Source: Candidatus Collierbacteria bacterium RIFOXYD2_FULL_45_13 (lineage in GTDB: Bacteria > Patescibacteriota > Microgenomatia > UBA1400 > MFAQ01). From it: a DNA stretch of 64,000 nt. The stretch spans positions 351,557-415,556 of the forward strand of contig MFAS01000001.1 of the NCBI GenBank assembly GCA_001774685.1, given 5' to 3'. The notes below the pieces were generated by a model. The model saw only the letters and a list, made by a program, of their open reading frames with translations, was not told the origin of the DNA and did no database searches. Every line of letters starts with the position of its first letter. Positions within the stretch are counted from its first letter, which is position 1. Both the position numbers and the translations under genes were made by a program. Of this stretch, positions 39,551 to 57,504 are shown piece by piece.

Positions 39551-39584
39551 CCTTTTATCCAAAAACGGGCAGGGAATCCTTTTC

Positions 39585-39976
39585 TGTTGTCTGTTATAAC
39601 GAAATTCGAACTTATTTTCGGGACCATTACTAATCTATTGGCTCACCGATCAACACTTCATGTCTCGCGGTTCGCCACCGCCAGCCCTGCCGGTCCGCCT
39701 TTGGCGGAGGCGGAAACCCTTGCGCGCGATTAATAATGTATCCCGACTGCGGTCGGGATAATTGCTCTTTCGAGCAAGCGCCAGCTATCACTGTCGCATC
39801 TTTATGTTCGCCACAACTTCACATCCAGTGATTGTGGCGAAACTGTTCTCAATATATGGCTCGAATTTCAAACTCGCCATAAAATATCAGCTAGTTAGGA
39901 AAAGATTTTACTATCTGATATTCCAGAATTGAGACAGCATTTGGCCTTCAGGCCAAAGTGCCTGCTCCGCAGGCAC
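39585..39976 (+). repeat. repeat family copy 1 (~392 nt, non-coding, several hairpins)
   Basis: Near-identical to 45747..46204 and partly to 50857..50959 (inverted); no ORF. Confidence 0.6.
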
Positions 39977-40027
39977 AATAACTATTTCTGGTTGCTATGA
40001 TACACAGAAAGACATAAAATACAAACA

Positions 40028-40555
40028 ATGGAACAAATAATTTTAGCGAGACACTGTCAGACAGATCTATTAGCCTCTGGTGATAGTAGTACAAGAAGAA
40101 ACGATTCTCCTTTATCAGAGTTGGGATTGAAGCAAGCAGCTCAAGTCAGTAAGTTTGTAAACAAATTCGAATATGATGCAGTTTTTTCAAGTTTGTTTAT
40201 TCGAACGATAAAAACAGCAGAAATAATAAACGAGAACAAAAAACCTCAATTCGCCAATATTAATTTGAGTGAGTATTTTGCCGGTGACGACGGAAAAGGA
40301 AGAGAATCAACAACTATGGGAATAGCTAGAACGATGTCTTTTATTTACCCCATGTTTGATCTATACAAATCAATTGTAATTGTCGGTCACAACGCCATAA
40401 ACTCCACAATTCTTAGGTCTTTTCTTAATATGGAATTTGAGGAGGCTGAAGGCTATTTCAAATCAGTCGGTCAAGTACTGGTACTTAGACGAGATTGGCA
40501 AAAAGGAGATAAGGTTTGGCACATAGAGGACAAATTTACCCCTGACCAAGAATAA
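40028..40555 (+). CDS. histidine phosphatase (phosphoglycerate-mutase-like) family protein
   Basis: N-terminal LARHCQT (RHG) catalytic motif. Confidence 0.55.
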   Translation: MEQIILARHCQTDLLASGDSSTRRNDSPLSELGLKQAAQVSKFVNKFEYDAVFSSLFIRTIKTAEIINENKKPQFANINLSEYFAGDDGKGRESTTMGIARTMSFIYPMFDLYKSIVIVGHNAINSTILRSFLNMEFEEAEGYFKSVGQVLVLRRDWQKGDKVWHIEDKFTPDQE

Positions 40556-40556
40556 T

Positions 40557-43779: not shown

Positions 43780-43785
43780 AAAAAT

Positions 43786-44913: not shown

Positions 44914-44916
44914 AAG

Positions 44917-45708
44917 ATGAAATACAAAGCTTTATTGCTCGATATTGATGGCGTCTTGCTTAACAAGGAGGATGATACGGATCAGAAAACTTGGGAAGCA
45001 ATAAATGATCTCATCGCCCGTGGTATTCAGGTATCCTTTGTAACTTCGCGCCCATACGGACTAGCGTCACATCTTGTCAAAAAGATATCTGACCACGGTA
45101 TCCATGTATTTGAAAATGGAAACTTTATTTATGAACCAAAAGACAAAAAGGTTCATAAAGCTGAGTACTTAGAAACACAGCTCTCCGGAGAAGTTATTCA
45201 GATGGTAAAACCTCATGAAGGAAATATAAAAATAGGGTACTCGTTGGGAGACAAGTTTATGGTTAATGAAAACTACTTCGATAATTTGAAGTCATATATG
45301 CCGGTAAACGACTACTCAAAAATAGATGAATATTGTGAATATAACTACGTTTCAATTTGGCTCAAAGATATTCCAAGTTATTTCGGCAAAAAAATTATTG
45401 AGATTGTAAAAAACAATGCCCGTATTAATATCTATCATCAAAACGAACTTCTTGATTCGGTATTTATCCACCCAGAATCAGGCAATAAATTGGAGGGGGT
45501 AAAAGAGTTATCAAAATTAACGGGAAGATCTCTAGAGTCCTCGGTCTTTATCGGAAATGATTCGGATGATATCTGCTTGGCTCGTGAGGTCGGACTTTCG
45601 GCGACTCCAGCAAATGGCATTGATGAACTCAAGAAAGTTTCAGTTATTGTCTCAAGCTATGAGTATTCACTTTCAATAAGCGATATCATACAAAAAGTGT
45701 GGGGATAA
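44917..45708 (+). CDS. HAD-superfamily hydrolase, subfamily IIB (Cof-like sugar phosphatase)
   Basis: LLDIDGVLL (DxD) motif I; GNDSDD motif IV. Confidence 0.7.
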   Translation: MKYKALLLDIDGVLLNKEDDTDQKTWEAINDLIARGIQVSFVTSRPYGLASHLVKKISDHGIHVFENGNFIYEPKDKKVHKAEYLETQLSGEVIQMVKPHEGNIKIGYSLGDKFMVNENYFDNLKSYMPVNDYSKIDEYCEYNYVSIWLKDIPSYFGKKIIEIVKNNARINIYHQNELLDSVFIHPESGNKLEGVKELSKLTGRSLESSVFIGNDSDDICLAREVGLSATPANGIDELKKVSVIVSSYEYSLSISDIIQKVWG

Positions 45709-45746
45709 ACTATCCGCGCGGGCGACATATCCGACTGATGCCGGAA

Positions 45747-46204
45747 AATCTCAATCTGTTGTCTGTTATAACGAAATTCGAACTTATTTTCGGGACCATT
45801 ACTAATCTATTGGCTCACCGATCAACACTTCGTGTCTCGCGGTTCGCCACCGCCTGCCCTGCCGGTCCGCCTTTGGCGGAGGCGGAACCACTTGCGCGCG
45901 ATTAATAATGTATCCCGACCTCATCATCATTGCGAGGTTCGGTGCTCCGAGCCGTGGCAATCTCACACCATTCTGATTCGGTCGTGATGGTTGCTCTTGC
46001 GAGCAAGCGCCAGCGTTCGCTGTCGCATCTTTATGTTCGTCCCAACTTCGCATTCAGCGATTGGGACGAAACAGTCTCAATATATGCTCAAATTAGCAAT
46101 TTCGCCATAAAATATCAGCTAGTTAGGAGAATATTTTACTAGCTGATATTTAGGACTTGAGACAGCATTTGGCCTGTCGGCCAAAGTGCCTGCTTCGCAG
46201 GCAC
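45747..46204 (+). repeat. repeat family copy 2 (~458 nt; ~60-nt insertion relative to copy 1)
   Basis: Alignment to copy 1 by eye, with compensatory substitutions in two stems. Confidence 0.6.
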
Positions 46205-46220
46205 AAAATATTTTGAGTAA

Positions 46221-46250
46221 TTGACAGTAATGTATACGTTGTCATACAAT
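46221..46250 (+). promoter_or_regulatory. sigma70-like promoter TTGACA-N18-TACAAT overlapping direct ATGTATAC repeats (probable RHH operator); near-leaderless start at 46259
   Basis: ttgacagtaatgtatacgttgtcatacaatgtatacatATG. Confidence 0.4.
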
Positions 46251-46258
46251 GTATACAT

Positions 46259-46657
46259 ATGACAACCAACAAAGTTCTCAACGCCAGAGTTTCAGACAAG
46301 CTATACGAAAAAATATCTGATAAAGCTAAGAAAAATAGAACTACTGTTTCTAACTTAATCAGAAACTTAGTCGAAGATGCATTGGAGATCCACGAAGATT
46401 TTCATGAAGCCGTAGACAAGAAAATCAGGAAATATCTTTCAGAAACTGAAAAACAAGACATTTTGGGATACCAGGAGATGGTACTTGTTAAAGATACTGA
46501 ATGCGACAACTGTGGTATGTTACTCAAAGTATCAGAAACAGCATATTTTGCCTTTTTCGAAGACAGGGATGTTAAGGCTATTCTCTGTGCCACCTGTAAA
46601 AACGAAAGTTTACAACCGGAGAAAACAAAAGCGCATGAGAATACTTCAAATAAGTAA
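46259..46657 (+). CDS. ribbon-helix-helix (CopG/Arc-like) DNA-binding protein with C-terminal CxxC...CxxC zinc ribbon
   Basis: N-terminal VSDKLYEKISDKAKKNRTTVSNLIRNLVEDAL RHH pattern. Confidence 0.45.
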   Translation: MTTNKVLNARVSDKLYEKISDKAKKNRTTVSNLIRNLVEDALEIHEDFHEAVDKKIRKYLSETEKQDILGYQEMVLVKDTECDNCGMLLKVSETAYFAFFEDRDVKAILCATCKNESLQPEKTKAHENTSNK

Positions 46658-48008
46658 GGAGTTACTTGCCCTAAGTATCCAAACTAAGCCTTGGGATAAA
46701 GATGGGTTTGCCTCTAAAACAAATGCTATCTTGATTCGAAAGTCCCTAGAGAGATTGGGTTCTGTATTTGTGAAGTTGGGGCAGATGTTGGCATTGCGGC
46801 CAGATTTTATCCCTGTCATTTTTTGCAATGAGCTATACAAACTACTAGATCAAGTTCCCCCTTTCGAGTCAAAACTTGCACTAGACATCCTTCGACATGA
46901 GCTCGGAAATAATAAATTCTCAAAACTTCTAGAACTCAATCCCAATCCTGTTGCCTCAGCTTCCTTTGCACAAGTTCATAAAGCAAAATTGGCTAATGGT
47001 GATGTTGTGGCTGTCAAAATTCAAAGACCAAATGTTGAACTGGTGATTCACGGAGATTTAGCAATTATGAGGTTCATGTCAAAATTATTTGATTTTTGGT
47101 TCCACCCAGCAAATAAGTTAATAAACATCGTGGAAGAGTTTGAAGCCTGGACAAAAGATGAGCTTGATTATTCACTAGAGGCCAGCAATATAGAAAAGTT
47201 TAATGACACTGCCGAGCTTGTGGGAGATGGTATTCGTGGTCCAAATGTATACAGGGAACTAAGTACATCTAAGGTGATAACAATGGAATTCATTGATGGT
47301 TACAGCTTAACCAAAATAATTACCCTTTTGCAAGAAGGAAATAAGAAACAAGTTCGAGAGCTTGGTTTTGATGGTAAAGATATTGTCGATAAATTAATCA
47401 AAAATATGTTGGAAATGTCCCATGTTCATGGTTTCTTCCATGCGGACCCTCACCCAGCCAATATTATTTTCACCCTAGAAAAAGAACTGGTATTAATTGA
47501 TTTTGGCATAGTGGGCAATCTTTCAAGAAAAGAAAGAACCCTAATGCTAAGGTACTTCCGAACACTAATGGCAGGCAATGCTAAGGATTCGTTTGATTCG
47601 TTACTTGAACTTTGTGGTAATAAACAACCAGAAAATTTAGACCAAGTCAAAGAACGATATTCTACTTTGATTGATAAGTTTGCGGCAACATTCAGTTCAA
47701 AAACTTACTTGGAGCAACAAATAAAGTCTGGCCCCATTCTAGCCGAAACACTTAGTCTTATGCAAGGTAATGGTATGAAAGTTCCAGTTAGCATTGTCAG
47801 ATACTTCAAGGCATTCGAAACAGTCGAGGGTCTGATTTTTGCACTTTACCCAAAACTACAAATCCAAGATATGCTCAAAGAATTTAGGCGGGTATCAATA
47901 ATAAATATCGTCGATTCCATCCCCACAAAATTTGATTCGGTAAACATTGATTCCTTAATGCTCAAGATTATCGATTCTGTGGAAAAAAGTTTGTTACTTG
48001 ACGACTAG
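46635..48008 (+). CDS. ABC1/UbiB-family atypical protein kinase
   Basis: FVKLGQMLALRPDFIP motif; kinase catalytic motifs. The track ORF (46485) is trimmed to Met51, which overlaps the upstream gene by 23 nt. Confidence 0.7.
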   Translation: MRILQISKELLALSIQTKPWDKDGFASKTNAILIRKSLERLGSVFVKLGQMLALRPDFIPVIFCNELYKLLDQVPPFESKLALDILRHELGNNKFSKLLELNPNPVASASFAQVHKAKLANGDVVAVKIQRPNVELVIHGDLAIMRFMSKLFDFWFHPANKLINIVEEFEAWTKDELDYSLEASNIEKFNDTAELVGDGIRGPNVYRELSTSKVITMEFIDGYSLTKIITLLQEGNKKQVRELGFDGKDIVDKLIKNMLEMSHVHGFFHADPHPANIIFTLEKELVLIDFGIVGNLSRKERTLMLRYFRTLMAGNAKDSFDSLLELCGNKQPENLDQVKERYSTLIDKFAATFSSKTYLEQQIKSGPILAETLSLMQGNGMKVPVSIVRYFKAFETVEGLIFALYPKLQIQDMLKEFRRVSIINIVDSIPTKFDSVNIDSLMLKIIDSVEKSLLLDD

Positions 48009-48047
48009 GAAGACTAGCGGAACAACGTTAAGGGTTACAATAAAAGT

Positions 48048-48344
48048 ATGAGCAAAGCATTTCGACTACTTTTTATTACAATACTAATATTTTCAGCATA
48101 TCATCTGATCCGTGATTTACTCACAAATTTTGGAATTCATAACTATATTGTAGATTTTGCACATCGTCCTCACTTGTGGTGTGGAAAATTTTATCCTTGG
48201 GTTTGTCATTGGATTACAGTTCCTCCTGAGATTTTTACGTTAATAGTGTCAATAATCGTATTAAAGCGAAACAGGGTAGGAGTACTTGGGTTTTTAGTTT
48301 TATTACAAGTACCACTGTGGTTATTATTAGTCTTGTTACCTTAG
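48048..48344 (+). CDS. small 3-TM membrane protein
   Basis: ORF track; hydropathy. Confidence 0.3.
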   Translation: MSKAFRLLFITILIFSAYHLIRDLLTNFGIHNYIVDFAHRPHLWCGKFYPWVCHWITVPPEIFTLIVSIIVLKRNRVGVLGFLVLLQVPLWLLLVLLP

Positions 48345-48350
48345 CAAATA

Positions 48351-48917
48351 ATGTTTCGCTCACTTTTCCAAAAAATTGTAAGACAAAGATCTGAAGTTGT
48401 TATTAGTCGCATCTTTCCATTTCTCAAAGACTCAAAAAAGATTTTAGATATTGGTTCTGGGACGGGTGATGTAGCATTTCTGCTAGGGGAACATGGAAAA
48501 GACGTAACGCCTGTTGATGTTAGCGATTTTCATGGTCCTAGACTTGTAAAAACCACGATCTACGACGGACGAAAACTACCATTTCCGAATAACTCATTTG
48601 ATACTGCCATGCTGCTTATGGTTATGCACCACACCCCTAACCCAGAAATTGTCTTTGATGAAGCATCGAGGGTAGCCAAAGAATTAGTAATTATTGAAAC
48701 TTCATACACGACTCCGATAAACAGATGGTTTACTATAGTCTCTGATGCTCTAGGAAATCTTCGCCTTGAAGCCTTTTGGTCATCATATAAATCTGATTCT
48801 GAGTGGAAGGAACTTTTTGCAAAAAAGAAATTCGAAATAGTTAAAACTCAAAAATATAACGACAGAAATTTTGGTCTCCCATTTCTACACATCGCCTATT
48901 ATTTACGACGAAAATAG
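48351..48917 (+). CDS. class I SAM-dependent methyltransferase
   Basis: ILDIGSGTGDV motif I. Confidence 0.65.
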   Translation: MFRSLFQKIVRQRSEVVISRIFPFLKDSKKILDIGSGTGDVAFLLGEHGKDVTPVDVSDFHGPRLVKTTIYDGRKLPFPNNSFDTAMLLMVMHHTPNPEIVFDEASRVAKELVIIETSYTTPINRWFTIVSDALGNLRLEAFWSSYKSDSEWKELFAKKKFEIVKTQKYNDRNFGLPFLHIAYYLRRK

Positions 48918-49555
48918 TTTTTAACCCACTTCCTCCCAAACTTAATCCATCCAAAATATATTGTGCCAGACGCATAAGCAAAAATCCAACTGATAGCAGT
49001 GAATGATACAGCATCGGTAACTTTAAGAGATATTAGGTACCAAATTATCGTGGCGGGTATCATGCCCAAAGTCGATACCATAAAATATTGAGAGAATTTG
49101 AGATTAGTCAGTCCAAAAGCATAAGAAATTACATCGTGAAATTCCTTCATAAATAATCGAAATACAAAGAGAGTTTGTAATCCATAGTCTTTTGTCAGTC
49201 CGTCTAGCTTTTCTAAGGCGTCCAAACCAGCCACTTTTTCTACTACCTTTCTACCCCAAATCCTTCCTATCCAAAAGTTTGTTATCGAGGCAATCACGGC
49301 AGCGATAAAGGCATAGACCACAGACATTTGTCCGTATAGATAAAATCCAGCGAACAGAAACGGTGAACCACTTAAGGGGGCAGCCACATTTGTTATCCAT
49401 AAGCAGAAAATAAGTAGCACAACACCCCACGGTCCAGCACTTGCCATAGTTGTTCTTATTGTCGTTTCCGGTATCATCGTGCCAATCAAAATCATGATTA
49501 AAAAAGTGAGAACGATCAGAAATATGGGCAAATAGTTTCTTTTGTGAATCTTCAT
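48899..49555 (-). CDS. DedA/TVP38-family membrane protein
   Basis: PLSGSPFLFAGFYLYG motif; multi-TM. Confidence 0.65.
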   Translation of the reverse strand: MKIHKRNYLPIFLIVLTFLIMILIGTMIPETTIRTTMASAGPWGVVLLIFCLWITNVAAPLSGSPFLFAGFYLYGQMSVVYAFIAAVIASITNFWIGRIWGRKVVEKVAGLDALEKLDGLTKDYGLQTLFVFRLFMKEFHDVISYAFGLTNLKFSQYFMVSTLGMIPATIIWYLISLKVTDAVSFTAISWIFAYASGTIYFGWIKFGRKWVKNYFRRK

Positions 49556-49617
49556 GCGATTGGTAAATTATACCCCGCCGATTCTAACTGTTTTGATCAT
49601 TCTCGATCCGTCAATCA

Positions 49618-49642
49618 GCCAAAGTGCCTGCTTCGCAAGCAC
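49618..49642. repeat. solo copy of the repeat-family terminal hairpin (GCCAAAGTGCCTGC-TTCG-CAAGCAC)
   Basis: Matches the 3' end of repeat copies 1 and 2. Confidence 0.4.
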
Positions 49643-49651
49643 GCCTAAATC

Positions 49652-50689
49652 TTATTTGATTGGAGTAAGAGGTAATTGACTGGAAATATATGAAGCAATT
49701 ACTTGCTGGGCAATGGGTTCTACTCTTCGGCCAACCCACGATGCTGCTTTTCCTATATTTCCAAGTAATAACTTAATTTTTTCAATATCATGCGGTTTCT
49801 TGATTTCATCTTGTAACGCACCAAGATTTTTCATTATTTCTTCTTTATTCTCTGGATTTTTCTCGTCAATTTCCTTACGAATACTATCAAAACTTGTGTC
49901 AATATCAGCATTTATGTTTACTGGACTATTGTTTCCAGTAGTTATGTTGATATTGTGTCCATATCTTACTTTTTTAATCATTTCCTTTTTATCATTGCTT
50001 TTAAGACTAATTCCTGTGAGAAATTGTACTCCCTCTGGTTTTATCTTGATACTAATATATGATCCTGTTGAGTCTCTCAATATTTCAATAAAATTATTAA
50101 ACTCTAGAATTTCTAAATTTGAATCTATAGTATTTTTATCAAAGGGAAAGATAGATCTCATAAGGTCAATATGTAAATTCGTGGAATAACTATCTTTTCT
50201 GTGCATATATAGCGGTTCCAATATCGCCTTTGCCATAAGTTCATCGGTCATATGGTCGCCGAACATTTTGATCTGAAATGTTTTTTCCATCGAATCATGG
50301 ACTTTGATATTGTGAATTCTAGAATCTTGCTGACGTCCATCCTCGAGGTCTCGAATAAACCTAAATATGAAACTTTCACTTTGACTTGTAAGGACATCTT
50401 TATCAAATGGAAGGTAGTGTAGTAAGTTCACTAATGCTTCTTCAAGAAATGGTTCTTGGGGAAACTTTTTACTTTTTGGGTCTGCCCACAAATAATCTAA
50501 GAGCATAGACTGTTGGAAGCATATCTTCCCAACAAGCTCCTTATCATTTTCATCATATATTCTAAAAGCGGCAATCCATACTAAAAAATTTCCGTTTACC
50601 TGATTGTTTCTTCCCGTGAGATTTACTGCGTGCGCCGTGTATATGCCACTCCCATTCCTAAATTTTATTTTTTTGAATTCGTCATCCAT
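49652..50689 (-). CDS. hypothetical protein (345 aa), island cargo next to the recombinase
   Basis: AT-rich ORF; no recognisable family. Confidence 0.4.
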   Translation of the reverse strand: MDDEFKKIKFRNGSGIYTAHAVNLTGRNNQVNGNFLVWIAAFRIYDENDKELVGKICFQQSMLLDYLWADPKSKKFPQEPFLEEALVNLLHYLPFDKDVLTSQSESFIFRFIRDLEDGRQQDSRIHNIKVHDSMEKTFQIKMFGDHMTDELMAKAILEPLYMHRKDSYSTNLHIDLMRSIFPFDKNTIDSNLEILEFNNFIEILRDSTGSYISIKIKPEGVQFLTGISLKSNDKKEMIKKVRYGHNINITTGNNSPVNINADIDTSFDSIRKEIDEKNPENKEEIMKNLGALQDEIKKPHDIEKIKLLLGNIGKAASWVGRRVEPIAQQVIASYISSQLPLTPIK

Positions 50690-50856
50690 AATTTACAGCA
50701 ATTCTATATCTTTCAGTATCATAAGTATATGCGTTGTTGATATTTTCAATATAATTTAGTTAATAAAAATCCCGAGCTCGAACACTATAGGAAAAAACCA
50801 ATTTTTGCGTTTTCTGTCATGGCTACTGCGGTAGCCATCGTTCGAACCGATGTTAC

Positions 50857-50959
50857 GGCAGGCGGTGGCGAACCGCGAGACACGAAAGTGTTGAGCGGTG
50901 AGCCAATAGATTAGTAATGGTCCCGAAAATAAGTTCGAATTTCGTTATAACAGACAACA
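50857..50959 (-). repeat. repeat family copy 3 (partial, inverted; first ~100 nt of the core)
   Basis: Reverse complement aligns to the 5' part of copies 1 and 2, then diverges into a unique hairpin ATGGCTAC-TGCG-GTAGCCAT (50824-50843). Confidence 0.5.
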
Positions 50960-50989
50960 CTTCGGGATAAATCGGGAGAGTCGGGGTAA

Positions 50990-51022
50990 GTCGCCCGCGC
51001 GCCCGCCCACGCGCGGAGCGAC
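50990..51022. repeat. 33-bp GC-rich palindromic hairpin, left inverted repeat flanking the recombinase gene
   Basis: GTCGCCCGCGCGCCCGCCCACGCGCGGAGCGAC; the reverse complement recurs at 52563-52596 with 1 mismatch. Confidence 0.55.
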
Positions 51023-51130
51023 GCTCAGTTCTTTAATAATCTGTATCTTTCAAAAAGCGACAGAAAACGCAAAAATAAATTCGGTAAAACTTCTGCGGAA
51101 GTTTTGGGTCTTTTATGGTTAAATGAATGT

Positions 51131-52726
51131 ATGACCAAGTACATTGCGTACTGTCGGAAATCAACAGACGAGAAAGATCGACAAGTTTTGTCGATCGAAG
51201 CCCAGATTGCCGAGCTAAAAGAATTCGCCAAGAGGGAGAAGCTTCACATTGTCGAAATTTTAGTTGAAAGTAAAACCGCCAAAGAGCCGGGGAGGCTTGT
51301 CTTTCAACAAATGATAAAGCTTCTCCAGTCCGGCCAAGCCAACGCCATTCTTTCATGGCACCCAGATAGACTAGCCAGAAATAGTGTCGACGGAGGTCAG
51401 ATAATATATCTCGTCGACACAGGTGTAATTACAGATTTGAAGTTTCCCTCGTTCTGGTTTGAGAACACCCCTCAAGGCAAGTTTATGCTAAACATTGCCT
51501 TTGGCCAGTCTAAATACTATGTCGATAACCTCTCTGAGAATGTTAAGCGCGGTAATCGCCAAAAATTAAGGAATGGCGTTTGGCCGAACAAAGCTCCTCT
51601 TGGCTACAAAAATATTGTCGAGAACAAATCAATTGACATCGATCCGGAAGAAGCCAAAGTCGTCAGAAAAGCTTTTGAAATGTTTGCTGATGAAAAATAC
51701 TCTTTCATTCACATTGCTCGCTTCATGGCACAAGGGGGAATAACAAGCGCCCTCGGGAAGCCTTTGAAGATTGACCAAATCAAAAGTATGCTCCAGAAAA
51801 AATTCTACATCGGCACGATGGAATTTAATGGCGAAGAGTTCAAGGCTTCCCATCCAACTTTCATCAGCAAACAACTTTTTGAAAGAGTCCAAAGTAACAT
51901 TCAAAAGTTTTCTAGACCAAGGGAAACCAGTCACGACTTTGCTTTTTCCGGTTTGATGCGGTGTGGGGAGTGCGGCGCTACCATCACGGCTGAGCAACAC
52001 ATCAAGCACTACAAAAGAACCAATCGCACAGTCAAATATATTTACTATCGCTGTACAAAGAAAATAAAGGCCTGTTCTCAGCCGTATCTGGAAGAAAACA
52101 ATCTCTTTGATCAACTGAAGAGTGAGATTGGCCCCTCCGCCCTCCCCAAATCTTGGCAACGTGAGTGGAAAACTCGATTGGCACAGGATAAAGTCCTAGC
52201 GGATGAGTCCAAAGAAAAAGTTCTCGCCCTGCTTCATACCCAAACCGAAAGTTTTGATACCAAACTAAATACTCTTCTCGATGGATATCTGGACGGCACA
52301 GTTGACTCCGACATCTACAAAACCAAAAAGAGTCAGCTGTTCCAAGAAAAGCTCAAACTTGAGAGCCAGATATCCAAAACAGAAGAAGAAGGTTGTAGTT
52401 GGCTCGAACCTTTTTCTAAGTTTGTAAATAGCGCCATACTGGCGCAAAAAATCGCGCGCAAGGGTTCCGTGGACTCAGAACTGCGGTTCTTCGTCCAAAA
52501 CATCGGTTCGAACTTCTTTTTGAAAGATAAACAGATTATGGTGGAATGGGAAAAGCCCTTCGCATCGCTCCGCGCGTGGGCGGGCGCGCGGGCGACTACC
52601 CCGAAAACGGGCGGGGAATCCCAGAGTGTTGCCGGACTAGGATTCGAACCTAGAATATTCGCCTCCAGAGGGCGACGTCCTACCATTAGACGACTCGGCA
52701 ATACGAGCTCTATTTTACCTCATTAG
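51131..52726 (+). CDS. large serine recombinase (integrase/resolvase type)
   Basis: N-terminal catalytic YCRKSTDEKDRQVLSIEAQ motif, recombinase domain, Cys4 zinc-ribbon CGECG...YRCTKK, coiled-coil region. The ORF has no stop until 52726, so the C-terminus runs through the right IR and antisense tRNA-Gln and the true end is uncertain. Confidence 0.75.
   Translation: MTKYIAYCRKSTDEKDRQVLSIEAQIAELKEFAKREKLHIVEILVESKTAKEPGRLVFQQMIKLLQSGQANAILSWHPDRLARNSVDGGQIIYLVDTGVITDLKFPSFWFENTPQGKFMLNIAFGQSKYYVDNLSENVKRGNRQKLRNGVWPNKAPLGYKNIVENKSIDIDPEEAKVVRKAFEMFADEKYSFIHIARFMAQGGITSALGKPLKIDQIKSMLQKKFYIGTMEFNGEEFKASHPTFISKQLFERVQSNIQKFSRPRETSHDFAFSGLMRCGECGATITAEQHIKHYKRTNRTVKYIYYRCTKKIKACSQPYLEENNLFDQLKSEIGPSALPKSWQREWKTRLAQDKVLADESKEKVLALLHTQTESFDTKLNTLLDGYLDGTVDSDIYKTKKSQLFQEKLKLESQISKTEEEGCSWLEPFSKFVNSAILAQKIARKGSVDSELRFFVQNIGSNFFLKDKQIMVEWEKPFASLRAWAGARATTPKTGGESQSVAGLGFEPRIFASRGRRPTIRRLGNTSSILPH
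52563..52596. repeat. 33-bp GC-rich palindromic hairpin, right inverted repeat
   Basis: Reverse complement of the 50990-51022 sequence (1 mismatch). Confidence 0.55.
52629..52700 (-). tRNA. tRNA-Gln (anticodon CUG)
   Basis: Cloverleaf folded by hand. Acceptor arm 6/7 bp with a U1:A72 pair. D-loop AAUGGUA. Anticodon stem UCGCC/GGCGA with loop CUCUGGA. T-arm CUAGG-UUCGAAU-CCUAG. CCA is not encoded. Confidence 0.7.
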
Positions 52727-52761: not shown

Positions 52762-53244
52762 CTACCAATCTGGAAAAATTGACTTCCAGCCCCCTTCAGC
52801 CAACTGCTTTCTGATTTTTTCCACCTCTTCCATGACGCCTACGCTATAGACTTCCTCAAAGAGTACCATCATGTCGTCAGGCAGGAAGTCCACGGGCAAT
52901 ACCAAGTTTCCGCAGGAAAAACCCTCAATACTGCTCATGTCTACGCAGAGTAGGGCGATCCATCTCAGTCGTTCCACAGGATCAATTGGCAATAGAATAC
53001 AGCCACTTTCGTAGACAGTTCTAAAGATGTCCATCAGCTTGTGATCTTGCCACCAGAAATGTCCTTGGTCTTGTGCCTCAATCTGAGATAGCCGATCGAC
53101 CACCTCTTCCCTTAGTTTTTCGACCTCCAGCGCCTCCGCCAAGATCTCCGCATTCTGTTTCCCCGGCATTATTGGCGAGAACAAAGAGTTTACCGCAGAC
53201 TCCATTTGGGCCTCCAGCTTGTCGTGTAGAGTGAATGTGCTCAC
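52762..53244 (-). CDS. hypothetical protein
   Basis: ORF track only. Confidence 0.35.
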   Translation of the reverse strand: MSTFTLHDKLEAQMESAVNSLFSPIMPGKQNAEILAEALEVEKLREEVVDRLSQIEAQDQGHFWWQDHKLMDIFRTVYESGCILLPIDPVERLRWIALLCVDMSSIEGFSCGNLVLPVDFLPDDMMVLFEEVYSVGVMEEVEKIRKQLAEGGWKSIFPDW

Positions 53245-53254
53245 CTATTTTACT

Positions 53255-53437
53255 CTATTTACCTGTCTGGACTTGGTCACCTCCTTCCTCGTTTGAGGCT
53301 TCCAGGGCTGCAACCATCTCTATCATTTCTTGTGTCACAAACTCTCCCGCATCGTGTCCCCAAAACTCAATCTCCTGTAAACTAGTTGAATCTTTGACCA
53401 AGCCGGACATTTGAAAAGTTATTTTCTCAACCATCAA
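53255..53437 (-). CDS. hypothetical small acidic protein
   Basis: ORF track only. Confidence 0.25.
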   Translation of the reverse strand: MMVEKITFQMSGLVKDSTSLQEIEFWGHDAGEFVTQEMIEMVAALEASNEEGGDQVQTGK

Positions 53438-53474
53438 ATCTCACCCCCTTCCGGCAAAAATCGTCAAAAAAAAG

Positions 53475-53503
53475 AGGCCCTTCGGCCTTTTTGACGACGT
53501 CAC
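53475..53503. terminator. bidirectional rho-independent terminator (A-tract, GGCC-CTTC-GGCC, T-tract)
   Basis: Downstream of the minus-strand gene 53604..54482. Confidence 0.5.
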
Positions 53504-53603
53504 TTTTTGTATCCTGGTATTTCTTCATTCCCAGAAATCCAGTCTAGTGGAAATCTGCTCACCTGTCAAATCGTTCGTTTGGCTTGCCGGCAAGAGGAAA
53601 ATC

Positions 53604-54482
53604 TTATTTTCTGGCTACAACAATACCGGTTGACCTAAAACTTTCCAGCTCCGCTTCGGAGAATCCAAAGTCACTTTCCCATTTTTCTTTCAGATAGGGG
53701 ATGGTGGAGGATCTTTGGAACAACACTTGCATGCCCAAAAGTTTAAAGATCTGATCGTATTGTTCAAAAGAAACCGGCACATAATTTTCCCCACCTTCTC
53801 TTTCCCAATTATCGGCGTACATGTACTTCAGTAGGAAGTGGTTCAGCTGTTTGATCGTCTTTGTGGGTCCAAAGATTGTTTCAAAATCCGTCAGAAGGTG
53901 CGTGACCTCCTCCTTGGCTATTACCTTATTTTTTGTCTCCTCTACCCACAGTTCGGATTTATCGGCGTAGTCATACAAGATCATGTCCCGCAGAATCAGG
54001 ACACCGCCTTTGTTTAGTGTTTCGTGGGCATCGGAAAGGGCTTTGACAATTGTCGAGATTCCTTCTCCATAACTAAAAAATTCGTGAAGAACAGAACAGA
54101 AGAGAACCACATCAAACCTTTCCGGATTACTCAGCCTCTCTCGCAAATAGCCGTGCTCAAAACTTACATTTTTTCTCTCCCCGATTCTTCCTCGGGCGAT
54201 GTTAATGAAATCCTCGTTCAAATCAATCCCCACAAAACTCATTTCCGGATACATGTCCGCCAGTGCCAAAGTGATGGTTCCGTCTGCACAGCCCACGTCC
54301 AAGAGAGTACTGGCCGCCTGTGGTATGTACTTGGCGATTTTTAGCTTCTCCTGCAGGGGTTTACTCATTCTTTCCAAGTAACGTTGTGGGTTCACTATAT
54401 CTTCCATGGGTTCATTATATTCCATAAGATAGTGTTGACAAGACACTAAAGAGGGTGTATAACATACACTATGACCATACAA
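53604..54482 (-). CDS. class I SAM-dependent methyltransferase
   Basis: LDVGCADGTITL motif I. The start is probably an internal Met (~54425), because the track start overlaps the pnuC start. Confidence 0.6.
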   Translation of the reverse strand: MYGHSVCYTPSLVSCQHYLMEYNEPMEDIVNPQRYLERMSKPLQEKLKIAKYIPQAASTLLDVGCADGTITLALADMYPEMSFVGIDLNEDFINIARGRIGERKNVSFEHGYLRERLSNPERFDVVLFCSVLHEFFSYGEGISTIVKALSDAHETLNKGGVLILRDMILYDYADKSELWVEETKNKVIAKEEVTHLLTDFETIFGPTKTIKQLNHFLLKYMYADNWEREGGENYVPVSFEQYDQIFKLLGMQVLFQRSSTIPYLKEKWESDFGFSEAELESFRSTGIVVARK

Positions 54483-55142
54483 AACTTCTTTGGGGTGGAT
54501 ACCATCTTCTTTACCCTTCTCAACTACCCCATGAGCTATATCGAGTTCTTTGGCACCATTTTTACGGGCTGGTCCGTATACCTTTCCGCCAAGAACAAGG
54601 TTATTTCCTGGCCAGTTGGGCTGGTTGGGGTCGTTCTATACGGTTTCTTGTTTTACCAAATCCAGCTTTATTCCGACCTTTTCGAGCAGCTCTACTACCT
54701 TCTCACGGGCTTCTGGGGTTGGTGGGTCTGGACTCACCCGGCGGCCAAAGAAAGAGATACCAACAGCGAGCTGGTCATTAGCCGGACCAGTCGAAACTTC
54801 AACCTGATCGGGTTAGCCTCCATCGTCATTCTTACCTTTTCTTTGAGCAGTTTTATGTCCAACATTCACTTGATTTTCCCGGTACTGTTTCCCGTTGCCG
54901 CTTCATTTCCCTTTATGGATGCCTTCACCACCGCAGCCAGTTTTGTCGCCAACGTCTATCTGGTCAAAAGAAAAATTGAGAACTGGTATCTGTGGATTAT
55001 TGTCGATATCATCGGTGTCTTTCTCTACTATCAAAAAGGAGTCATATTCCTCGCTCTGTTGTACGTCTTCTTCTTGATAAACGCCTTCAAGGGAGTTTAC
55101 GACTGGTCAAAAACTCTCAAAGGATATGCCAAAAAAGTTTAG
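54471..55142 (+). CDS. pnuC: nicotinamide riboside transporter PnuC
   Basis: 7-TM PnuC pattern; LTGFWGWWVW motif; 17-nt overlap with the downstream nadR-like gene. Confidence 0.7.
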   Translation: MTIQNFFGVDTIFFTLLNYPMSYIEFFGTIFTGWSVYLSAKNKVISWPVGLVGVVLYGFLFYQIQLYSDLFEQLYYLLTGFWGWWVWTHPAAKERDTNSELVISRTSRNFNLIGLASIVILTFSLSSFMSNIHLIFPVLFPVAASFPFMDAFTTAASFVANVYLVKRKIENWYLWIIVDIIGVFLYYQKGVIFLALLYVFFLINAFKGVYDWSKTLKGYAKKV

Positions 55143-56142
55143 TACGGGTCTCGTTATCGGTAAGTTTTATCCTTTTCACCAAGGCCATCAATTTTTAATC
55201 AAGACTGCCCTCAAGAACTCCGCTTCGGTAACCGTCATTGTCTGTCAAACCGATCGGTATCTCATTCCTGCCGATATTAGAGCCTGGTGGATCAGAGAGA
55301 CTTTTCCCAAGGTGGAAGTGCGTATCTTGAATCATGACGCCTCTCTGGACTCGGACTCTACCGATGTCTCCAAGGCCTGGGCCGATCTTACAGTCAAGTT
55401 TTTGGGCTATGCCCCAGACGCCGTTTTTACTTCCGAGATCTACGGTGCATCTTATGCCAAGTTCATGGGTAGTCACCATGTCATGGTGGATTTGAAAAGA
55501 CAGATTTTTCCTATAAGTGCTACCAAAATTAGATCGGCTGTGGATAAATACTGGAAATATTTACCGAGCGCCACCCAAGAATACTTCACACAAAAGATTG
55601 TGGTACTTGGTGCCGAGTCCACCGGTACTACCACCCTAGCCCAAGATCTCGCTCGTTACTATCATACTGTTTGGGTCCCGGAGTATGGCCGATTCTATTA
55701 TGAAGGTAAAATGTTTTCTCAAAACGCTTCTGACTGGAAAACTGATGAGTTCGTTCATATTGCTACCAACCAAAACCACCTTGAAGACGCTTTAATAAAA
55801 AAAGCCAATAGACTTCTAATCTGTGACACAGATGCTTTCGCCACCACCCTTTGGCACGAGCGTTATGTCGGCAAAGAGAGTCGGAAGCTGGAAAGAATTG
55901 TTAAGCGGCAGAAGCCTCTTCTATACATTCTCACGGACATCGACATTCCCTTTGTTCAGGATGGTACCCGGGACGGCGAACATATTAGACAAAATATGCA
56001 CCATAGATTTATCGAGGAGTTAAGTAGACGCAAACTAAATTACATAGTCGTCAGTGGAGACAAAGAAAAGAGACTGGCTGAATCGGTTAAGAAAATCGAC
56101 GAGTTAATTGCACTTCGAAATGTGCTATATTCGTCACCATGA
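55126..56142 (+). CDS. nadR: NadR-type bifunctional NMN adenylyltransferase / ribosylnicotinamide kinase (no HTH domain)
   Basis: GKFYPFHQGH nucleotidyltransferase motif; P-loop LGAESTGTTTL kinase domain. Confidence 0.7.
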   Translation: MPKKFSTGLVIGKFYPFHQGHQFLIKTALKNSASVTVIVCQTDRYLIPADIRAWWIRETFPKVEVRILNHDASLDSDSTDVSKAWADLTVKFLGYAPDAVFTSEIYGASYAKFMGSHHVMVDLKRQIFPISATKIRSAVDKYWKYLPSATQEYFTQKIVVLGAESTGTTTLAQDLARYYHTVWVPEYGRFYYEGKMFSQNASDWKTDEFVHIATNQNHLEDALIKKANRLLICDTDAFATTLWHERYVGKESRKLERIVKRQKPLLYILTDIDIPFVQDGTRDGEHIRQNMHHRFIEELSRRKLNYIVVSGDKEKRLAESVKKIDELIALRNVLYSSP

Positions 56143-56744
56143 GGTTAACCGAAAAAGAAGCGAACACAAGAGACCAATACAACAAAAACGCATCTGAGTG
56201 GCTCAAGTATTCAGGAGGAGAAAAAAGACCTTGTTTCTGGTCAGCCGAAATGAAGGATTTTGTCTCGTATCTATCTGGAAGTACCGTTCTTGATCTCGGT
56301 GCCGGACCGGCAACCGATAGTAGTTACTTGAGAGAATTCGGGCTGGATGTCATCTCAACTGATTATTCAAGAAGTATGTTAGGCATTGCTCATTCCCTGG
56401 ACCCAAAACTAAATCTGGTCGAATCAAACACCTACCTCTCACCGTTTAAGAACAACTCTTTTGACGGGGTTTGGTTTTGTGCTTCGTTACTACATTTAGA
56501 AAATCCGAATCTTGCCATGTTAGAAGTTAAACGTCTTCTCAAAGAAAAAGGAATCTGTTTTGTTTCGGTCAAGCAAGGTACGGGAGACAAGGTAGATCCC
56601 AAAACGGGTTACTACTTCAAATATTTTCTTGACGAAGAACTACAGCACTTGTTCGGCCTCACTGGTTTTGACATATTAAAATCACAGTCAAGGGAAGGAA
56701 CTGTCGGCCATCCCTGGCTTACTTATCAGCTAATTAAGCCTTAA
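56139..56744 (+). CDS. class I SAM-dependent methyltransferase
   Basis: VLDLGAGPATD motif I. Confidence 0.6.
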   Translation: MRLTEKEANTRDQYNKNASEWLKYSGGEKRPCFWSAEMKDFVSYLSGSTVLDLGAGPATDSSYLREFGLDVISTDYSRSMLGIAHSLDPKLNLVESNTYLSPFKNNSFDGVWFCASLLHLENPNLAMLEVKRLLKEKGICFVSVKQGTGDKVDPKTGYYFKYFLDEELQHLFGLTGFDILKSQSREGTVGHPWLTYQLIKP

Positions 56745-56748
56745 GGTC

Positions 56749-57504
56749 TTACTTTTTTACAGCCAATATTGCCATAAACATCGGGAACTCCTCACGCGCA
56801 CGGTTTTCCATCTTGGCTGCTTTTCCCTCGCTTTTTTTCTCTGATGTCCACTCCTCAATTTTTTTGATGAGGAAACCGTTACCAAAAAGGTAGTTGGAAT
56901 AATCTTCAACCGGGTGGTGGAAAGACCAAGTCACTGGGGAGTTCTCTTCTCCGGGATGGGTATTTATAGGTATCTCTAAAGGGGACATGTATCGATTAAT
57001 TCTCCTGTATTGCATTTTGTTTGCTTTGTCTTCTTCCCAACTGCTCTGTCTGGGGATTCTGAAACAGGGATGATTCAACACTATGACCAATTCACCGCTC
57101 TTCTCCATTACCTCACTCAAATGCTGTATTGTTTTTTCCGGCTCTTTAATGTTTTGAAGTGCCAGAATGATCGCCGCCTTGTTAAAAGTTTCCTTCAGCC
57201 CAAAACTCTTGGTGGCGTCGGTTACCAAATATCTATGTGACTTGTTATTATCCAGACTCTTTGCTTCATCAATCAGCTTCTTTGACGCGTCCAGCCCTAC
57301 ATACTTTACCGACTCCGGCAACCTTCGGGAGAGCACTCCTTGACCACAAGCGACATCAATCAATCTGTCTCCAGGCTTCACCTCCAAGAGTTTAAGTGTT
57401 TGGGGAATAATCAGTGATTGGTGATAGAAATGTCCTTTCTCGCCTACAATCGATCCATACCATTTACTTACTTTTTCCCACGATGTATTTTTGTCATCCC
57501 TCAT
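56749..57504 (-). CDS. class I SAM-dependent methyltransferase
   Basis: RLIDVACGQGVLS motif I. Confidence 0.6.
   Translation of the reverse strand: MRDDKNTSWEKVSKWYGSIVGEKGHFYHQSLIIPQTLKLLEVKPGDRLIDVACGQGVLSRRLPESVKYVGLDASKKLIDEAKSLDNNKSHRYLVTDATKSFGLKETFNKAAIILALQNIKEPEKTIQHLSEVMEKSGELVIVLNHPCFRIPRQSSWEEDKANKMQYRRINRYMSPLEIPINTHPGEENSPVTWSFHHPVEDYSNYLFGNGFLIKKIEEWTSEKKSEGKAAKMENRAREEFPMFMAILAVKK

What the first reader, a model, noticed from the sequence alone, without database searches (positions are those of the whole stretch)
50990..52596. Large serine recombinase gene bracketed by two inverted copies of a 33-bp GC-rich palindromic hairpin
Seen directly: GTCGCCCGCGCGCCCGCCCACGCGCGGAGCGAC at 50990-51022 and its reverse complement (1 mismatch) at 52563-52596, about 1.54 kb apart, enclosing only the recombinase. 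Each copy is itself a near-perfect hairpin, so both can pair within one strand and between the two sites. The pair could be the terminal inverted repeats of a compact IS-like unit, the recombination (inversion or excision) sites of the recombinase, or strong terminators. The right copy lies inside the recombinase reading frame, which lacks a stop codon until 52726 and reads through the antisense tRNA. These GC-rich tracts stand out in a moderate-GC genome.
Basis: seen in the sequence. Interest (0 to 1): 0.65.

Follow-up and report, generated by a model that had tools for sequence, protein, structure and literature searches.

The report
Recombinase gene split by its own attachment site
The two GC hairpins belong to inverted copies of the 3' end of a serine-recombinase gene whose attachment site lies inside the gene, so insertion of this mobile island next to a tRNA gene cuts off the enzyme's conserved last ~15 codons; self-splitting of this kind is recorded only for archaeal tyrosine integrases.

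Summary
The 33-mer lies at 50990-51022 (+) and 52564-52596 (-, one mismatch), each a 12-bp hairpin.

It is not an IS end, a REP or the crossover site. It is the best-kept part of a ~75-160 nt inverted repeat (R). That repeat flanks the large serine recombinase (LSR) gene in about 60 related Patescibacteria loci.

In this family:
- The LSR always abuts the 3' end of an antisense tRNA gene (13 amino-acid types).
- The LSR frame stays open up to the tRNA in 63 of 64 loci.
- Joining it to the island's far-end junction restores a conserved tail ([YF][ED]K[IV]RT.F) plus a stop codon.

So attP lies inside the LSR gene, and integration at the last 4-6 nt of the tRNA detaches the tail. In this window the detached tails sit at 45758-45805 and, from an older tandem island, at 39586-39633.

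The left hairpin belongs to a second, intact, inverted copy of that 3' end (an intact attP) just upstream of the LSR. The two copies evolve in concert.

The anatomy is well supported. The roles of the spare copy and of the hairpin are inferred. I found no published description of this arrangement.

The parts
39559..39686 (+). Junction alpha-1, the far end of the older, outer island. It holds an R-like remnant (39559-39585), the core GTTG (39586-39589), and a detached copy of the LSR's last codons plus stop (39586-39633, VVCYNEIRTYFRDHY*) followed by 3'-UTR hairpins (the P arm).
39690..39976 (+). X element, copy 1. This is a conserved multi-hairpin non-coding region that follows the P arm on the element side.
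45715..45757 (+). Truncated R remnant of a different R type (like L108). It starts with half a hairpin, CGCGCGGGCGAC, at 45715-45726. It is what is left of an older element's LSR end after its LSR was deleted.
45758..45858 (+). Junction alpha-2, the far end of the present island. It holds the core GTTG (45758-45761) and the detached tail codons plus stop of the present LSR (45758-45805), followed by the P-arm hairpins.
45881..46207 (+). X element, copy 2. It carries an inserted mini-hairpin repeat at 45928-45963.
50801..50818 (+). Motif A (ATTTTTGCGTTTTCTGTC). It is the left arm of an 18-nt perfect inverted repeat that closes the beta module. Its partner, A', lies at 51059-51076.
50856..50958 (-). 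P arm of the beta module. On the minus strand it is an intact spare copy of the LSR tail codons plus stop (50958 down to 50911) and the 3'-UTR hairpins. The core CAAC lies at 50955-50958.
50959..51057 (+). Left copy of R (the inverted duplicate of the linker-coding stretch), including the left GC hairpin at 50990-51022 and motif D at 51044-51057.
51131..52726 (+). Large serine recombinase ORF as it stands in the integrated state. The conserved body runs to about 52560, the linker is encoded by R', and residues 501-531 are read from antisense tRNA and its upstream flank.
52552..52627 (-). Right copy of R. It serves both as the tRNA trailer and as the LSR linker-coding stretch, and it includes the right GC hairpin at 52564-52596.
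52628..52631 (.). Core (GTTG, or CAAC on the other strand) shared by the tRNA junction, the beta module and the alpha junctions. This is the inferred crossover region, in the last 4 nt of the tRNA.
52628..52700 (-). tRNA-Gln(CTG), the integration target (the attB side).

Best explanation
The two hairpins are the best-conserved part of an inverted duplication of the 3' end of a large serine recombinase (LSR) gene. The LSR sits at the end of a genomic island inserted at the 3' end of tRNA-Gln(CTG).

In this LSR family, which is spread across Patescibacteria, the attachment site attP lies inside the recombinase gene, about 15 codons before its stop. Recombination with the last 4-6 nt of a tRNA gene inserts the element. 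This separates the conserved C-terminal peptide and the stop codon from the rest of the gene. They end up at the far end of the island, and the truncated ORF runs on through the antisense tRNA.

The stretch between the folded body of the enzyme and the crossover is called R here. It is about 100 nt long, encodes a disordered linker, and contains the GC hairpin. That is the right copy.

A second, uninterrupted copy of linker, tail, stop and 3' UTR lies inverted just upstream of the LSR gene. This is an intact attP-type site and it carries the left copy. Gene conversion keeps the two copies alike.

The window holds two tandem islands: 45758-52631 with the LSR, and 39586-45757, whose LSR has been lost.

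Shown: the anatomy, its conservation across loci, the ORF that spans the site, the conserved tail, the hybrid junctions, and the concerted evolution of the two copies.

Inferred: the full-length enzyme from the free form performs the integration. The hairpin acts at the RNA level, as a trailer or insulator placed next to the tRNA and, in the spare copy, in front of the LSR. The spare copy serves either to regulate the truncated gene or to restore it by inversion across R.
For: - Domains and family. The ORF has Resolvase, Recombinase and Zn_ribbon_recom domains. The homologue search returned 7796 homologues at E <= 0.001, the few named ones from Patescibacteria.
- tRNA adjacency. In the loci with complete flanks the LSR abuts an antisense tRNA, of 13 amino-acid types in all. 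A 75-158 nt inverted repeat, usually 95-100% identical within a locus but unrelated between distant loci, flanks the gene.
- Far-end junction. In about 40 loci a further copy of the P arm lies 0.6-8.5 kb upstream, in direct orientation relative to the tRNA. Its identity ends 1-8 nt into R.
- Open frame. The LSR frame is open through R' in 63 of 64 distinct loci, against 24 and 15 of 64 for the other two frames. The stop lies beyond the crossover in 62 of 64.
- Conserved tail. Joining LSR-R' to the reverse-complemented P arm gives a conserved peptide ending in a stop 10-19 codons later. The RT motif is present in 44 of 48 loci, and Arg is encoded by CGA, AGA or CGG.
- Intact tails exist in nature. 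Five of 120 database homologues end with exactly this tail. Contig L089 shows LSR-R'|P-X, an attP-type junction.
- Tandem integration. In L141 a foreign LSR has been joined at the core to a window-type P arm, showing integration into an occupied site.
- Concerted evolution. 92 of 94 between-locus differences in R are present in both inverted copies.
- Hairpin structure. The hairpin is conserved with compensatory changes: 72% of cells paired against 25-44% for slid partners, and 0 of 500 shuffles reach the observed score.
- Protein model. The AF2 model is confidently folded to about residue 476 (KPFAS). The linker and tail are of low confidence.
- Horizontal movement. The window LSR is 95% identical to that of L001, while the flanking MgsA, Lon and methyltransferase proteins are 69-81% identical.
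Against: - No empty attB and no circular junction could be recovered for this lineage. L089 could come from a tandem array rather than from a free circle.
- Short contigs that carry intact tails could in principle be mis-joined across the exact inverted repeat.
- In the window itself the two R copies are only 79% alike over 90 nt and are of different R types, so this element is a mosaic or is decayed.
- The hairpin is not a canonical intrinsic terminator in either direction. The strand bias of G-U pairs is weak (161 vs 111, p = 0.07).
- Nothing here shows that losing the tail changes the enzyme's activity.
- The inverted orientation of the gene was never observed.
Confidence: 0.8

Rival explanations
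1. The LSR gene between the two repeats is an invertible switch. RecA-dependent or LSR-catalysed inversion across R would join the LSR to the spare tail and stop in the upstream module. That would restore the full-length gene and place it downstream of the tRNA promoter, toggling the island between locked and excision-competent states. This is a proposed function for the spare copy and is compatible with the best explanation.
For: - The geometry fits. The spare copy holds exactly the missing codons, stop and 3' UTR in inverted orientation.
- The repeats are long and 95-100% identical.
- They are homogenised, with 92 of 94 differences shared, so the two copies do recombine on evolutionary time scales.
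- The elements move between species even though the integrated gene is truncated.
Against: - The inverted state, with the tRNA on the same strand upstream of the LSR, was not seen in about 70 contexts. The one exception, L011, may be a misassembly or a second attB event.
- Gene conversion alone explains the homogenisation.
- In the window the identity is too short (33 + 14 nt) for efficient homologous inversion.
Confidence: 0.25
2. The hairpins are RNA-level barriers. The element brings a structured trailer or terminator to the tRNA whose native downstream sequence it displaces. This stops tRNA read-through from running antisense into the LSR. The upstream copy likewise insulates the LSR from cargo transcription. 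This is also compatible with the best explanation.
For: - The hairpin sits at a fixed distance, about 25-35 nt after the tRNA 3' end, in all R types. Its stem is kept by compensatory changes while its sequence varies.
- G-U pairs and folding energy slightly favour the tRNA-sense strand.
- Many R copies begin with CCA, so the element rebuilds the tRNA 3' terminus.
Against: - No U-tract directly follows the stem, and the terminator scan does not call it.
- The strand bias is not significant (p = 0.07).
- A palindromic protein-binding site, or selection on DNA structure, would leave the same covariation.
Confidence: 0.35
3. A compact IS-like element made only of the recombinase and its two terminal inverted repeats.
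For: An inverted repeat brackets a single recombinase gene. The cassette with its repeats is conserved as a module next to varied cargo.
Against: - The right repeat always ends inside a tRNA 3' end, and the left one continues into the P arm. A third copy of the P arm lies kilobases away in direct orientation to the tRNA.
- Hybrid junctions define the whole island as the unit that recombines.
- There are no target-site duplications and no scattered copies in the window.
Confidence: 0.05
4. The hairpin itself is the LSR's recombination site, with crossover in the loop.
For: It is a GC-rich palindrome about as long as an LSR site. Several remnants, such as window 45715-26, L099 and L133, are truncated within the hairpin.
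Against: - In 27 loci the three-way identity breakpoints of the alpha, beta and gamma sites fall at the tRNA 3' end, 30 nt or more from the hairpin.
- The hairpin sequence differs freely between loci whose cores lie at the equivalent position.
- The truncations occur at varied points and look like deletion endpoints.
Confidence: 0.05
5. A generic REP element or terminator, or a chance or assembly artefact.
For: It is a GC-rich hairpin in a genome of moderate GC content.
Against: - There are only two full copies in 64 kb, both at the LSR.
- The same arrangement recurs in independent assemblies from many samples.
Confidence: 0.02

Closest known systems
Large serine integrases of phages and integrative elements (Bxb1, phiC31, TP901-1, A118, TnpX/TndX, CcrAB)
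   Same: It has the same domain architecture: a resolvase catalytic domain, a recombinase domain, and a zinc ribbon with a long coiled-coil insertion. The site logic is the same: short att sites with a very short common core, hybrid junctions after integration, and the recombinase gene at the element's edge.
   Different: - The target is the 3' terminus of tRNA genes of many kinds. From my own knowledge, serine integrases usually target protein-coding genes.
- attP lies inside the integrase ORF.
- A second, inverted attP copy is present.
- No conserved neighbouring gene that could encode an RDF is present.
- Integration into an already occupied (attL-type) site seems to occur (L141).
SSV-type 'suicidal' tyrosine integrases of archaeal viruses and plasmids (SSV1, pTN3, pT26-2)
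   Same: The att site lies within the integrase's own gene. Integration into a tRNA gene partitions the gene, which raises the same question of how excision is achieved (PMC8371274).
   Different: - That family is made of tyrosine recombinases. The review describes it as exclusively archaeal, and it splits the gene into two sizeable pseudogenes.
- Here the enzyme is a serine recombinase in bacteria.
- Only the last ~15 codons are detached.
- A spare copy of the detached part is kept in cis.
tRNA-associated genomic islands and tycheposons
   Same: These also integrate next to tRNA genes, carry variable and often defence-type cargo, and build tandem arrays in which newcomers push older, decaying elements outward (bioRxiv 10.1101/2020.12.28.424599; window islands 39586-45757 and 45758-52631).
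   Different: Those elements mostly use tyrosine integrases, and their ends are marked by partial tRNA copies. Here the crossover lies in the last 4-6 nt of the tRNA. The distal marker is the recombinase's own 3' end, not a tRNA fragment.
att sites inside regulatory or integrase genes of temperate phages: integration-dependent immunity of cluster G mycobacteriophages, and int of phage 21/e14 (own knowledge, not checked here)
   Same: Integration changes the C-terminus of a phage protein because attP lies in its coding sequence, so the protein's form reports the integration state.
   Different: Those are tyrosine-integrase systems, and in the first case the affected protein is the repressor. 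No inverted spare copy is known for them.
Hin/Gin-type invertible segments
   Same: A serine recombinase gene is bracketed by inverted repeats.
   Different: Those systems use small serine invertases with 26-bp sites and an enhancer, and both orientations coexist in populations. Here only one orientation was seen, and the repeats are duplicated coding sequence 75-160 nt long.

Membership tests
Large serine recombinase (integrase) family | N-terminal resolvase-type catalytic domain | tested here: met
   PF00239, E = 4e-20, residues 5-151. The PDB matches 3g13 and 3guv cover the catalytic domain only.
Large serine recombinase (integrase) family | Recombinase domain plus a zinc-ribbon domain carrying a coiled-coil insertion | tested here: met
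   PF07508 (E = 1.6e-16) and PF13408 (E = 1.5e-9). The AF2 model of homologue P0038 has long helices at residues 338-385 and 391-417, between the zinc-ribbon strands and the final beta-hairpin.
Large serine recombinase (integrase) family | Recombination between short attP and attB sites at a 2-bp crossover, giving hybrid attL and attR sites | tested here: inconclusive
   Hybrid junctions share a 4-6 nt core in 27 loci, and there is an attP-type junction in L089. No empty attB was found, and the exact crossover dinucleotide cannot be mapped from sequence.
Large serine recombinase (integrase) family | Excision needs a separate recombination directionality factor | not tested
   The genes next to the LSR module differ between loci, so no conserved neighbour is apparent. 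The genes of the islands were not searched for RDFs.
tRNA-integrating genomic island | Integrase gene next to a tRNA gene, with repeated junction sequences at both island ends and variable cargo between them | tested here: met
   tRNA-Gln lies at 52628-52700. The core plus P arm is repeated at 45758 and 39586. There is a low-GC cargo region at about 40-51 kb. Related loci carry different cargo at the same tRNA.
SSV-type suicidal integrases | The att site lies inside the integrase gene, so the gene is partitioned on integration | tested here: met
   The ORF is open to the crossover in 63 of 64 loci, and the conserved tail plus stop lies on the P arm. Intact-tail proteins exist in databases.
SSV-type suicidal integrases | Tyrosine recombinase fold and catalytic residues, in an archaeal host | tested here: not met
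   The enzyme is a serine recombinase and the hosts are Patescibacteria. This is therefore an analogue, not a member.
IS or transposon with terminal inverted repeats | The inverted repeats are the element's termini, and copies occur at varied sites, often with target duplications | tested here: not met
   The repeats are internal to the recombining unit. The window has one LSR and no other full repeat copy. The location at a tRNA 3' end is invariant.
Invertible DNA switch | Both orientations of the bracketed segment occur in populations | tested here: not met
   No inverted-state context was found in the GTDB and metagenome loci, apart from the ambiguous L011. Read-level data were not available.
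Intrinsic terminator or REP element | A GC hairpin directly followed by a U-tract, or many dispersed intergenic copies | tested here: not met
   The terminator scan does not call it, no adjacent T-run is present, and there are only two copies.

The most novel reading that the evidence does not exclude
The detachable C-terminal peptide is a built-in directionality device. The full-length LSR, made only when attP is intact, integrates. The tail-less, junk-tailed enzyme made from the integrated gene has a different activity: it is either inert and so locked, or it can excise without an RDF. The inverted spare copy of the 3' end then works as a cis-encoded reset, restoring the full-length gene by inversion across R. 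That would give a serine integrase whose direction is set by the state of its own gene rather than by a separate RDF, in a family that naturally targets the conserved 3' end of tRNA genes.
Probability: 0.2. Interest if true: 0.85.

Novelty: new variant of a known kind. Interest (0 to 1): 0.66.

Why it matters
Serine integrases are major genome-engineering tools. How their direction is controlled is an active question.

It has three unusual features:
- It targets the 3' end of tRNA genes of many kinds.
- It carries attP inside the integrase ORF, so a conserved C-terminal peptide is removed on integration.
- It keeps an inverted, homogenised spare attP next to the gene.

It is a bacterial, serine-recombinase counterpart of the "suicidal" integrases that a 2021 review calls exclusively archaeal.

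It also appears to be a main vehicle of island turnover in Patescibacteria. The cargo includes defence and cell-surface genes.

The idea that the tail controls activity or direction can be tested directly with two protein constructs and three DNA sites.

Tried and rejected
- Rfam. At gathering threshold the whole window gives only the tRNA. At E <= 1 the upstream module gives nothing and the X region gives only a chance miRNA hit.
- tRNA-like RNA or small protein. I considered that the upstream module is a tRNA-like RNA or encodes a small protein. ARAGORN finds no tRNA there. The minus-strand frame extends only about 10 codons beyond the repeat and has no consistent start codon. Rejected.
- Terminator. 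The terminator and promoter scan is uninformative for the hairpins.
- Empty attB. A search among about 140 held loci found none.
- Viral contigs. They contain no copy of the P-arm 31-mer.
- PDB. A sequence search matches only the catalytic domain, so the tail cannot be compared with solved LSRs.
- Tail structure. AF2 gives the tail low confidence, with only 3 intact-tail sequences in the alignment.
- T-loop mimicry. I first read GTTCGAAT in the P arm as a T-loop mimic placed for attP-type binding. It lies 4 bp further from the core than the real T-loop. But it also encodes the conserved I-R-T, and it changes synonymously in distant loci. The DNA-mimicry idea is therefore left open, not claimed.
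- Core script. My first script for core mapping printed nothing. The corrected version has a 1-nt offset in one row, so the cores were read by eye.
Full report
**1. The observation**

- The 33-mer occurs at 50990-51022 (+) and, with one mismatch, at 52564-52596 (-). Nothing like it appears in 100 shuffles, and the window has no other full copy.
- Each copy is a 12-bp GC stem with one bulged A and an 8-nt loop.
It spans 50984-51034 / 52552-52602 (86%), with a colinear 14-mer at 51044-57 / 52516-29. An 18-nt perfect inverted repeat (50801-18 / 51059-76) also brackets the left copy.
- Between the copies lies one gene with Resolvase, Recombinase and Zn_ribbon_recom domains.
- Its ORF passes through the right hairpin and through antisense tRNA-Gln(CTG) at 52628-52700, and stops at 52724-26.

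**2. The arrangement is a family trait**

- The protein belongs to a very large family of large serine recombinases (LSRs). The search gave 7796 hits at E <= 0.001, and the few hits that carry a source name are Patescibacteria.
- In an alignment of 27 members down to 53% identity, the stretch encoded by the hairpin (KPFASLRAxxGARA) appears conserved. Every protein then reads into G[FLIV]EP, which is a tRNA T-arm read backwards.
- I fetched 7 loci by protein identity and 80 from GTDB species genomes.
- Wherever both flanks are complete, two features recur:
  - An antisense tRNA abuts the LSR 3' end. The tRNAs cover 13 amino-acid types.
  - A 75-158 nt inverted repeat, called R here, links a stretch 50-150 nt upstream of the start codon with the stretch between the LSR body and the tRNA.
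- R is usually 95-100% identical within a locus but unrelated in sequence between distant loci.
- Its outer edge lies 3-5 nt inside the tRNA 3' end.
- The window's pair is unusually poor, at 79% over 90 nt. Its left R resembles the R type of L096/L102, and its right R resembles that of L001/L117.

**3. Three kinds of site define the mobile unit**

- The ~100-175 nt immediately left of the upstream R is called the P arm here. In about 40 loci it recurs 0.6-8.5 kb further upstream, inverted, which puts it in direct orientation relative to the tRNA. It is 97-100% identical, and the identity ends 1-8 nt into R.
- Aligning the three sites in 27 loci gives:
  - alpha = P|host flank
  - beta = P|R
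  - gamma = tRNA|R
- The common core is 4-6 nt at the very end of the tRNA: CAAC(A), TCAC(AC), CTGCA and so on. Many R copies begin with CCA.
- Alpha and gamma are what integration of a P|R site (attP) into a tRNA 3' end would leave.
- In the window, gamma is at 52628-31. The alpha junctions are at 45758-61 and 39586-89.
- The inner alpha junction is joined to a truncated R of another type that begins with half a hairpin (45715-26). Similar truncated remnants occur in L097, L099, L113, L119, L133 and L140.
- So the window carries two tandem islands:
  - 45758-52631 holds an ABC1 kinase, a methyltransferase, a VTT-domain protein, an unknown protein and the LSR.
  - 39586-45757 holds a histidine phosphatase, glycosyltransferases and a HAD hydrolase. 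Its LSR has been lost.
- These islands match the low-GC block at 40-51 kb.
- Contig L141 shows an array being built. An LSR of a 53%-identity subfamily keeps its own R on both sides, but at the core it is joined to a window-type P arm plus X. A newcomer therefore integrated into an already occupied tRNA|R site.

**4. attP lies inside the recombinase gene**

- In 63 of 64 distinct loci the LSR frame has no stop in the last 100 nt before the tRNA. The other two frames are open in 24 and 15 of 64. In 62 of 64 loci the stop lies beyond the crossover.
- I joined LSR-R' to the reverse complement of the P arm, which is the predicted uninterrupted state. The frame then continues into a conserved peptide and stops 10-19 codons later. 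Examples are VVCYNEIRTYFRDHY*, NVFEQIRTYFKGSGG*, SLYEKIRTIFQR* and KILNEARTLFEQID*.
- The motif [YF][ED][KQ][IVLA]RT.F is present in 44 of 48 loci.
- The underlying DNA changes synonymously: Arg is CGA, AGA or CGG, and Thr is ACT, ACC or ACG. The constraint is therefore on the protein.
- Five of the 120 best database homologues end with this tail.
- One of them sits on contig L089. The order there is: upstream R at the contig start, a full LSR, R', the core, the P arm, and then the X-type flank typical of alpha junctions. It does not carry the A/B flank of the beta module. This is therefore a genuine attP-type junction, from a free form or an array, and not a mis-join with beta.
- The AF2 model of that protein is confidently folded to about residue 476 (…KPFAS). 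Residues 479-512 have pLDDT below 50, with a short terminal helix.
- The hairpin therefore encodes the start of a disordered linker, and the tail is a tethered short motif.
- Integration replaces the tail with residues read from the antisense tRNA. In the window these are 31 residues, from 52631 to 52723.

**5. What the left hairpin is**

- The beta module (50801-51076) is an inverted duplicate of the gene's 3' end. On the minus strand it reads linker, tail, stop (50958 down to 50911) and 3'-UTR hairpins. It is an intact attP-type site lying just upstream of the LSR.
- It has no ORF of its own. The frame extends only about 10 codons beyond the repeat and has no consistent start.
- It folds strongly on either strand, with z = -6.8 and -5.6. 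It matches no Rfam family.
- Its R evolves in concert with the R at the gene's 3' end. Of 94 differences between related loci, 92 are present in both copies.
- The geometry would allow inversion across R to rejoin the LSR to the spare tail and place it downstream of the tRNA. I found that orientation in none of about 70 contexts.
- L011 is the one odd case. Its LSR is flanked by two convergent tRNA-Glu genes. That could be a second attB event at beta or a misassembly across the repeat.

**6. The hairpin itself**

- In all R types a 12-13 bp GC hairpin with a 6-8 nt loop sits about 25-35 nt from the tRNA end.
- Across 24 diverse R sequences, 72% of cells pair, against 25-44% when partners are slid. 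Eleven of 14 pairs show double changes, and no shuffle reaches the observed score.
- It lies outside the ~25-bp half-site expected for an LSR (own knowledge) and is not the crossover.
- It is not a canonical terminator.
- G-U pairs (161 vs 111) and folding energy weakly favour the tRNA-sense strand (p = 0.07).
- My best guess is an RNA-level trailer or insulator that the element places behind the tRNA and, through the duplicate, in front of the LSR. A DNA-level role cannot be excluded.

**7. Mobility and context**

- The LSR is far more similar between genomes than the neighbouring core genes. Against L001 it is 95% identical. The neighbouring proteins are 77% (MgsA), 81% (Lon) and 69% (methyltransferase) identical. 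The left flanks share no genes.
- Cargo in relatives includes a type I restriction-modification system (L004), a reverse transcriptase with an HTH protein (L006), an AAA_13 ATPase (L001), and an HNH protein with pP_pnuc (L002).
- Many contigs end at the repeat.

**8. Comparison with what is known**

- The enzyme is a bona fide large serine recombinase, and the element is a tRNA-associated genomic island.
- The att site inside the integrase's own gene parallels the SSV-type "suicidal" tyrosine integrases. A 2021 review describes these as exclusive to archaea (PMC8371274).
- Here the enzyme is a serine recombinase, the hosts are bacteria, only about 15 codons are detached, and a spare copy is kept.
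- Seven full-text searches found no description of this arrangement. The large LSR survey on bioRxiv (10.1101/2021.11.05.467528) does not mention tRNA targets or Patescibacteria. The library is incomplete, so prior description cannot be excluded.

**9. Verdict**

The repeat is linked to the recombinase and the missing stop is meaningful. But the repeat is not an IS end, not the crossover site and not a plain terminator.
- The anatomy and the integration logic are well supported.
- The functions of the detached tail, the spare copy and the hairpin remain inferences that simple experiments could settle.

Noticed in passing
window 39634-40000 and 45806-46207; also L089 1709-2165, L002 969-1368, L001 2531-2800: A conserved non-coding region of ~300 nt ('X') always follows the P arm on the element side. 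It has at least 5 hairpins and a multi-stem junction. Thirteen pairs show compensatory changes across 17 copies, and near-invariant G-U pairs favour the + (LSR-sense) strand. It has no Rfam match. It could be a structured RNA or a DNA origin or transfer site of the element.
   Followed up: partly
window 50801-50818 and 51059-51076: An 18-nt perfect inverted repeat (ATTTTTGCGTTTTCTGTC / GACAGAAAACGCAAAAAT) closes the upstream module. The TTTTGCG...CGCAAAA pair, 250-300 nt apart, recurs in 34 loci of the closer subfamily. The right arm, together with TTCAAA 16 nt upstream of its AAAAAT, could be the LSR promoter.
   Followed up: partly
window 50840-50854 and 52499-52513: A 15-nt perfect inverted match links the left edge of the upstream module (GTTCGAACCGATGTT) with the codons for the invariant NIGSN motif of the LSR. 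More distant subfamilies have analogous 27-28 nt matches. Its meaning is unknown.
   Followed up: no
window 45928-45963: A mini-hairpin repeat, CATTGCGAG...GCAATCT, is inserted in X copy 2 only. The same kind of insert sits at different positions of X in L002, L119, L121, L127, L133, L137 and L089. It looks like a small mobile palindromic insert.
   Followed up: no
L011 9791-9960 and 11431-11602: Here the LSR is flanked by two convergent real tRNA-Glu genes (TTC upstream, CTC downstream), with no P arm upstream. Either the spare attP has recombined with a second tRNA, or the contig is mis-joined across the repeat.
   Followed up: partly
L141 3990-5700; L121 10736-12985: These are tandem arrays with hybrid junctions and LSR remnants. 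In L141 an LSR of another subfamily now reads into a window-type tail, so a newcomer's integration gives the resident LSR a foreign tail.
   Followed up: partly
L088 3416-6151 (P0037) and P0015-P0025: Relatives of about 900 aa carry a second Recombinase plus Zn-ribbon unit. At least two of them (P0037, P0024) end with the same conserved tail. L066 has an LSR frame that stays open for 2.3 kb past its tRNA.
   Followed up: no
window 52762-56744: About 4 kb of genes lie between tRNA-Gln and the methyltransferase at 56749-57504. L001 and L002 have no counterpart to them, so the other side of the tRNA is also variable.
   Followed up: no
window 51086-51106: A small hairpin, AAAACTTCTGCGGAAGTTTT, lies 25 nt before the LSR start codon. 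It is conserved in the close relatives L001, L002 and L006 and absent from distant ones.
   Followed up: no
L008-L087: Many contigs begin or end within 100-300 nt of the LSR. This is consistent with the exact inverted repeat breaking short-read assemblies. LSR islands of this family are probably under-assembled in Patescibacteria MAGs.
   Followed up: no
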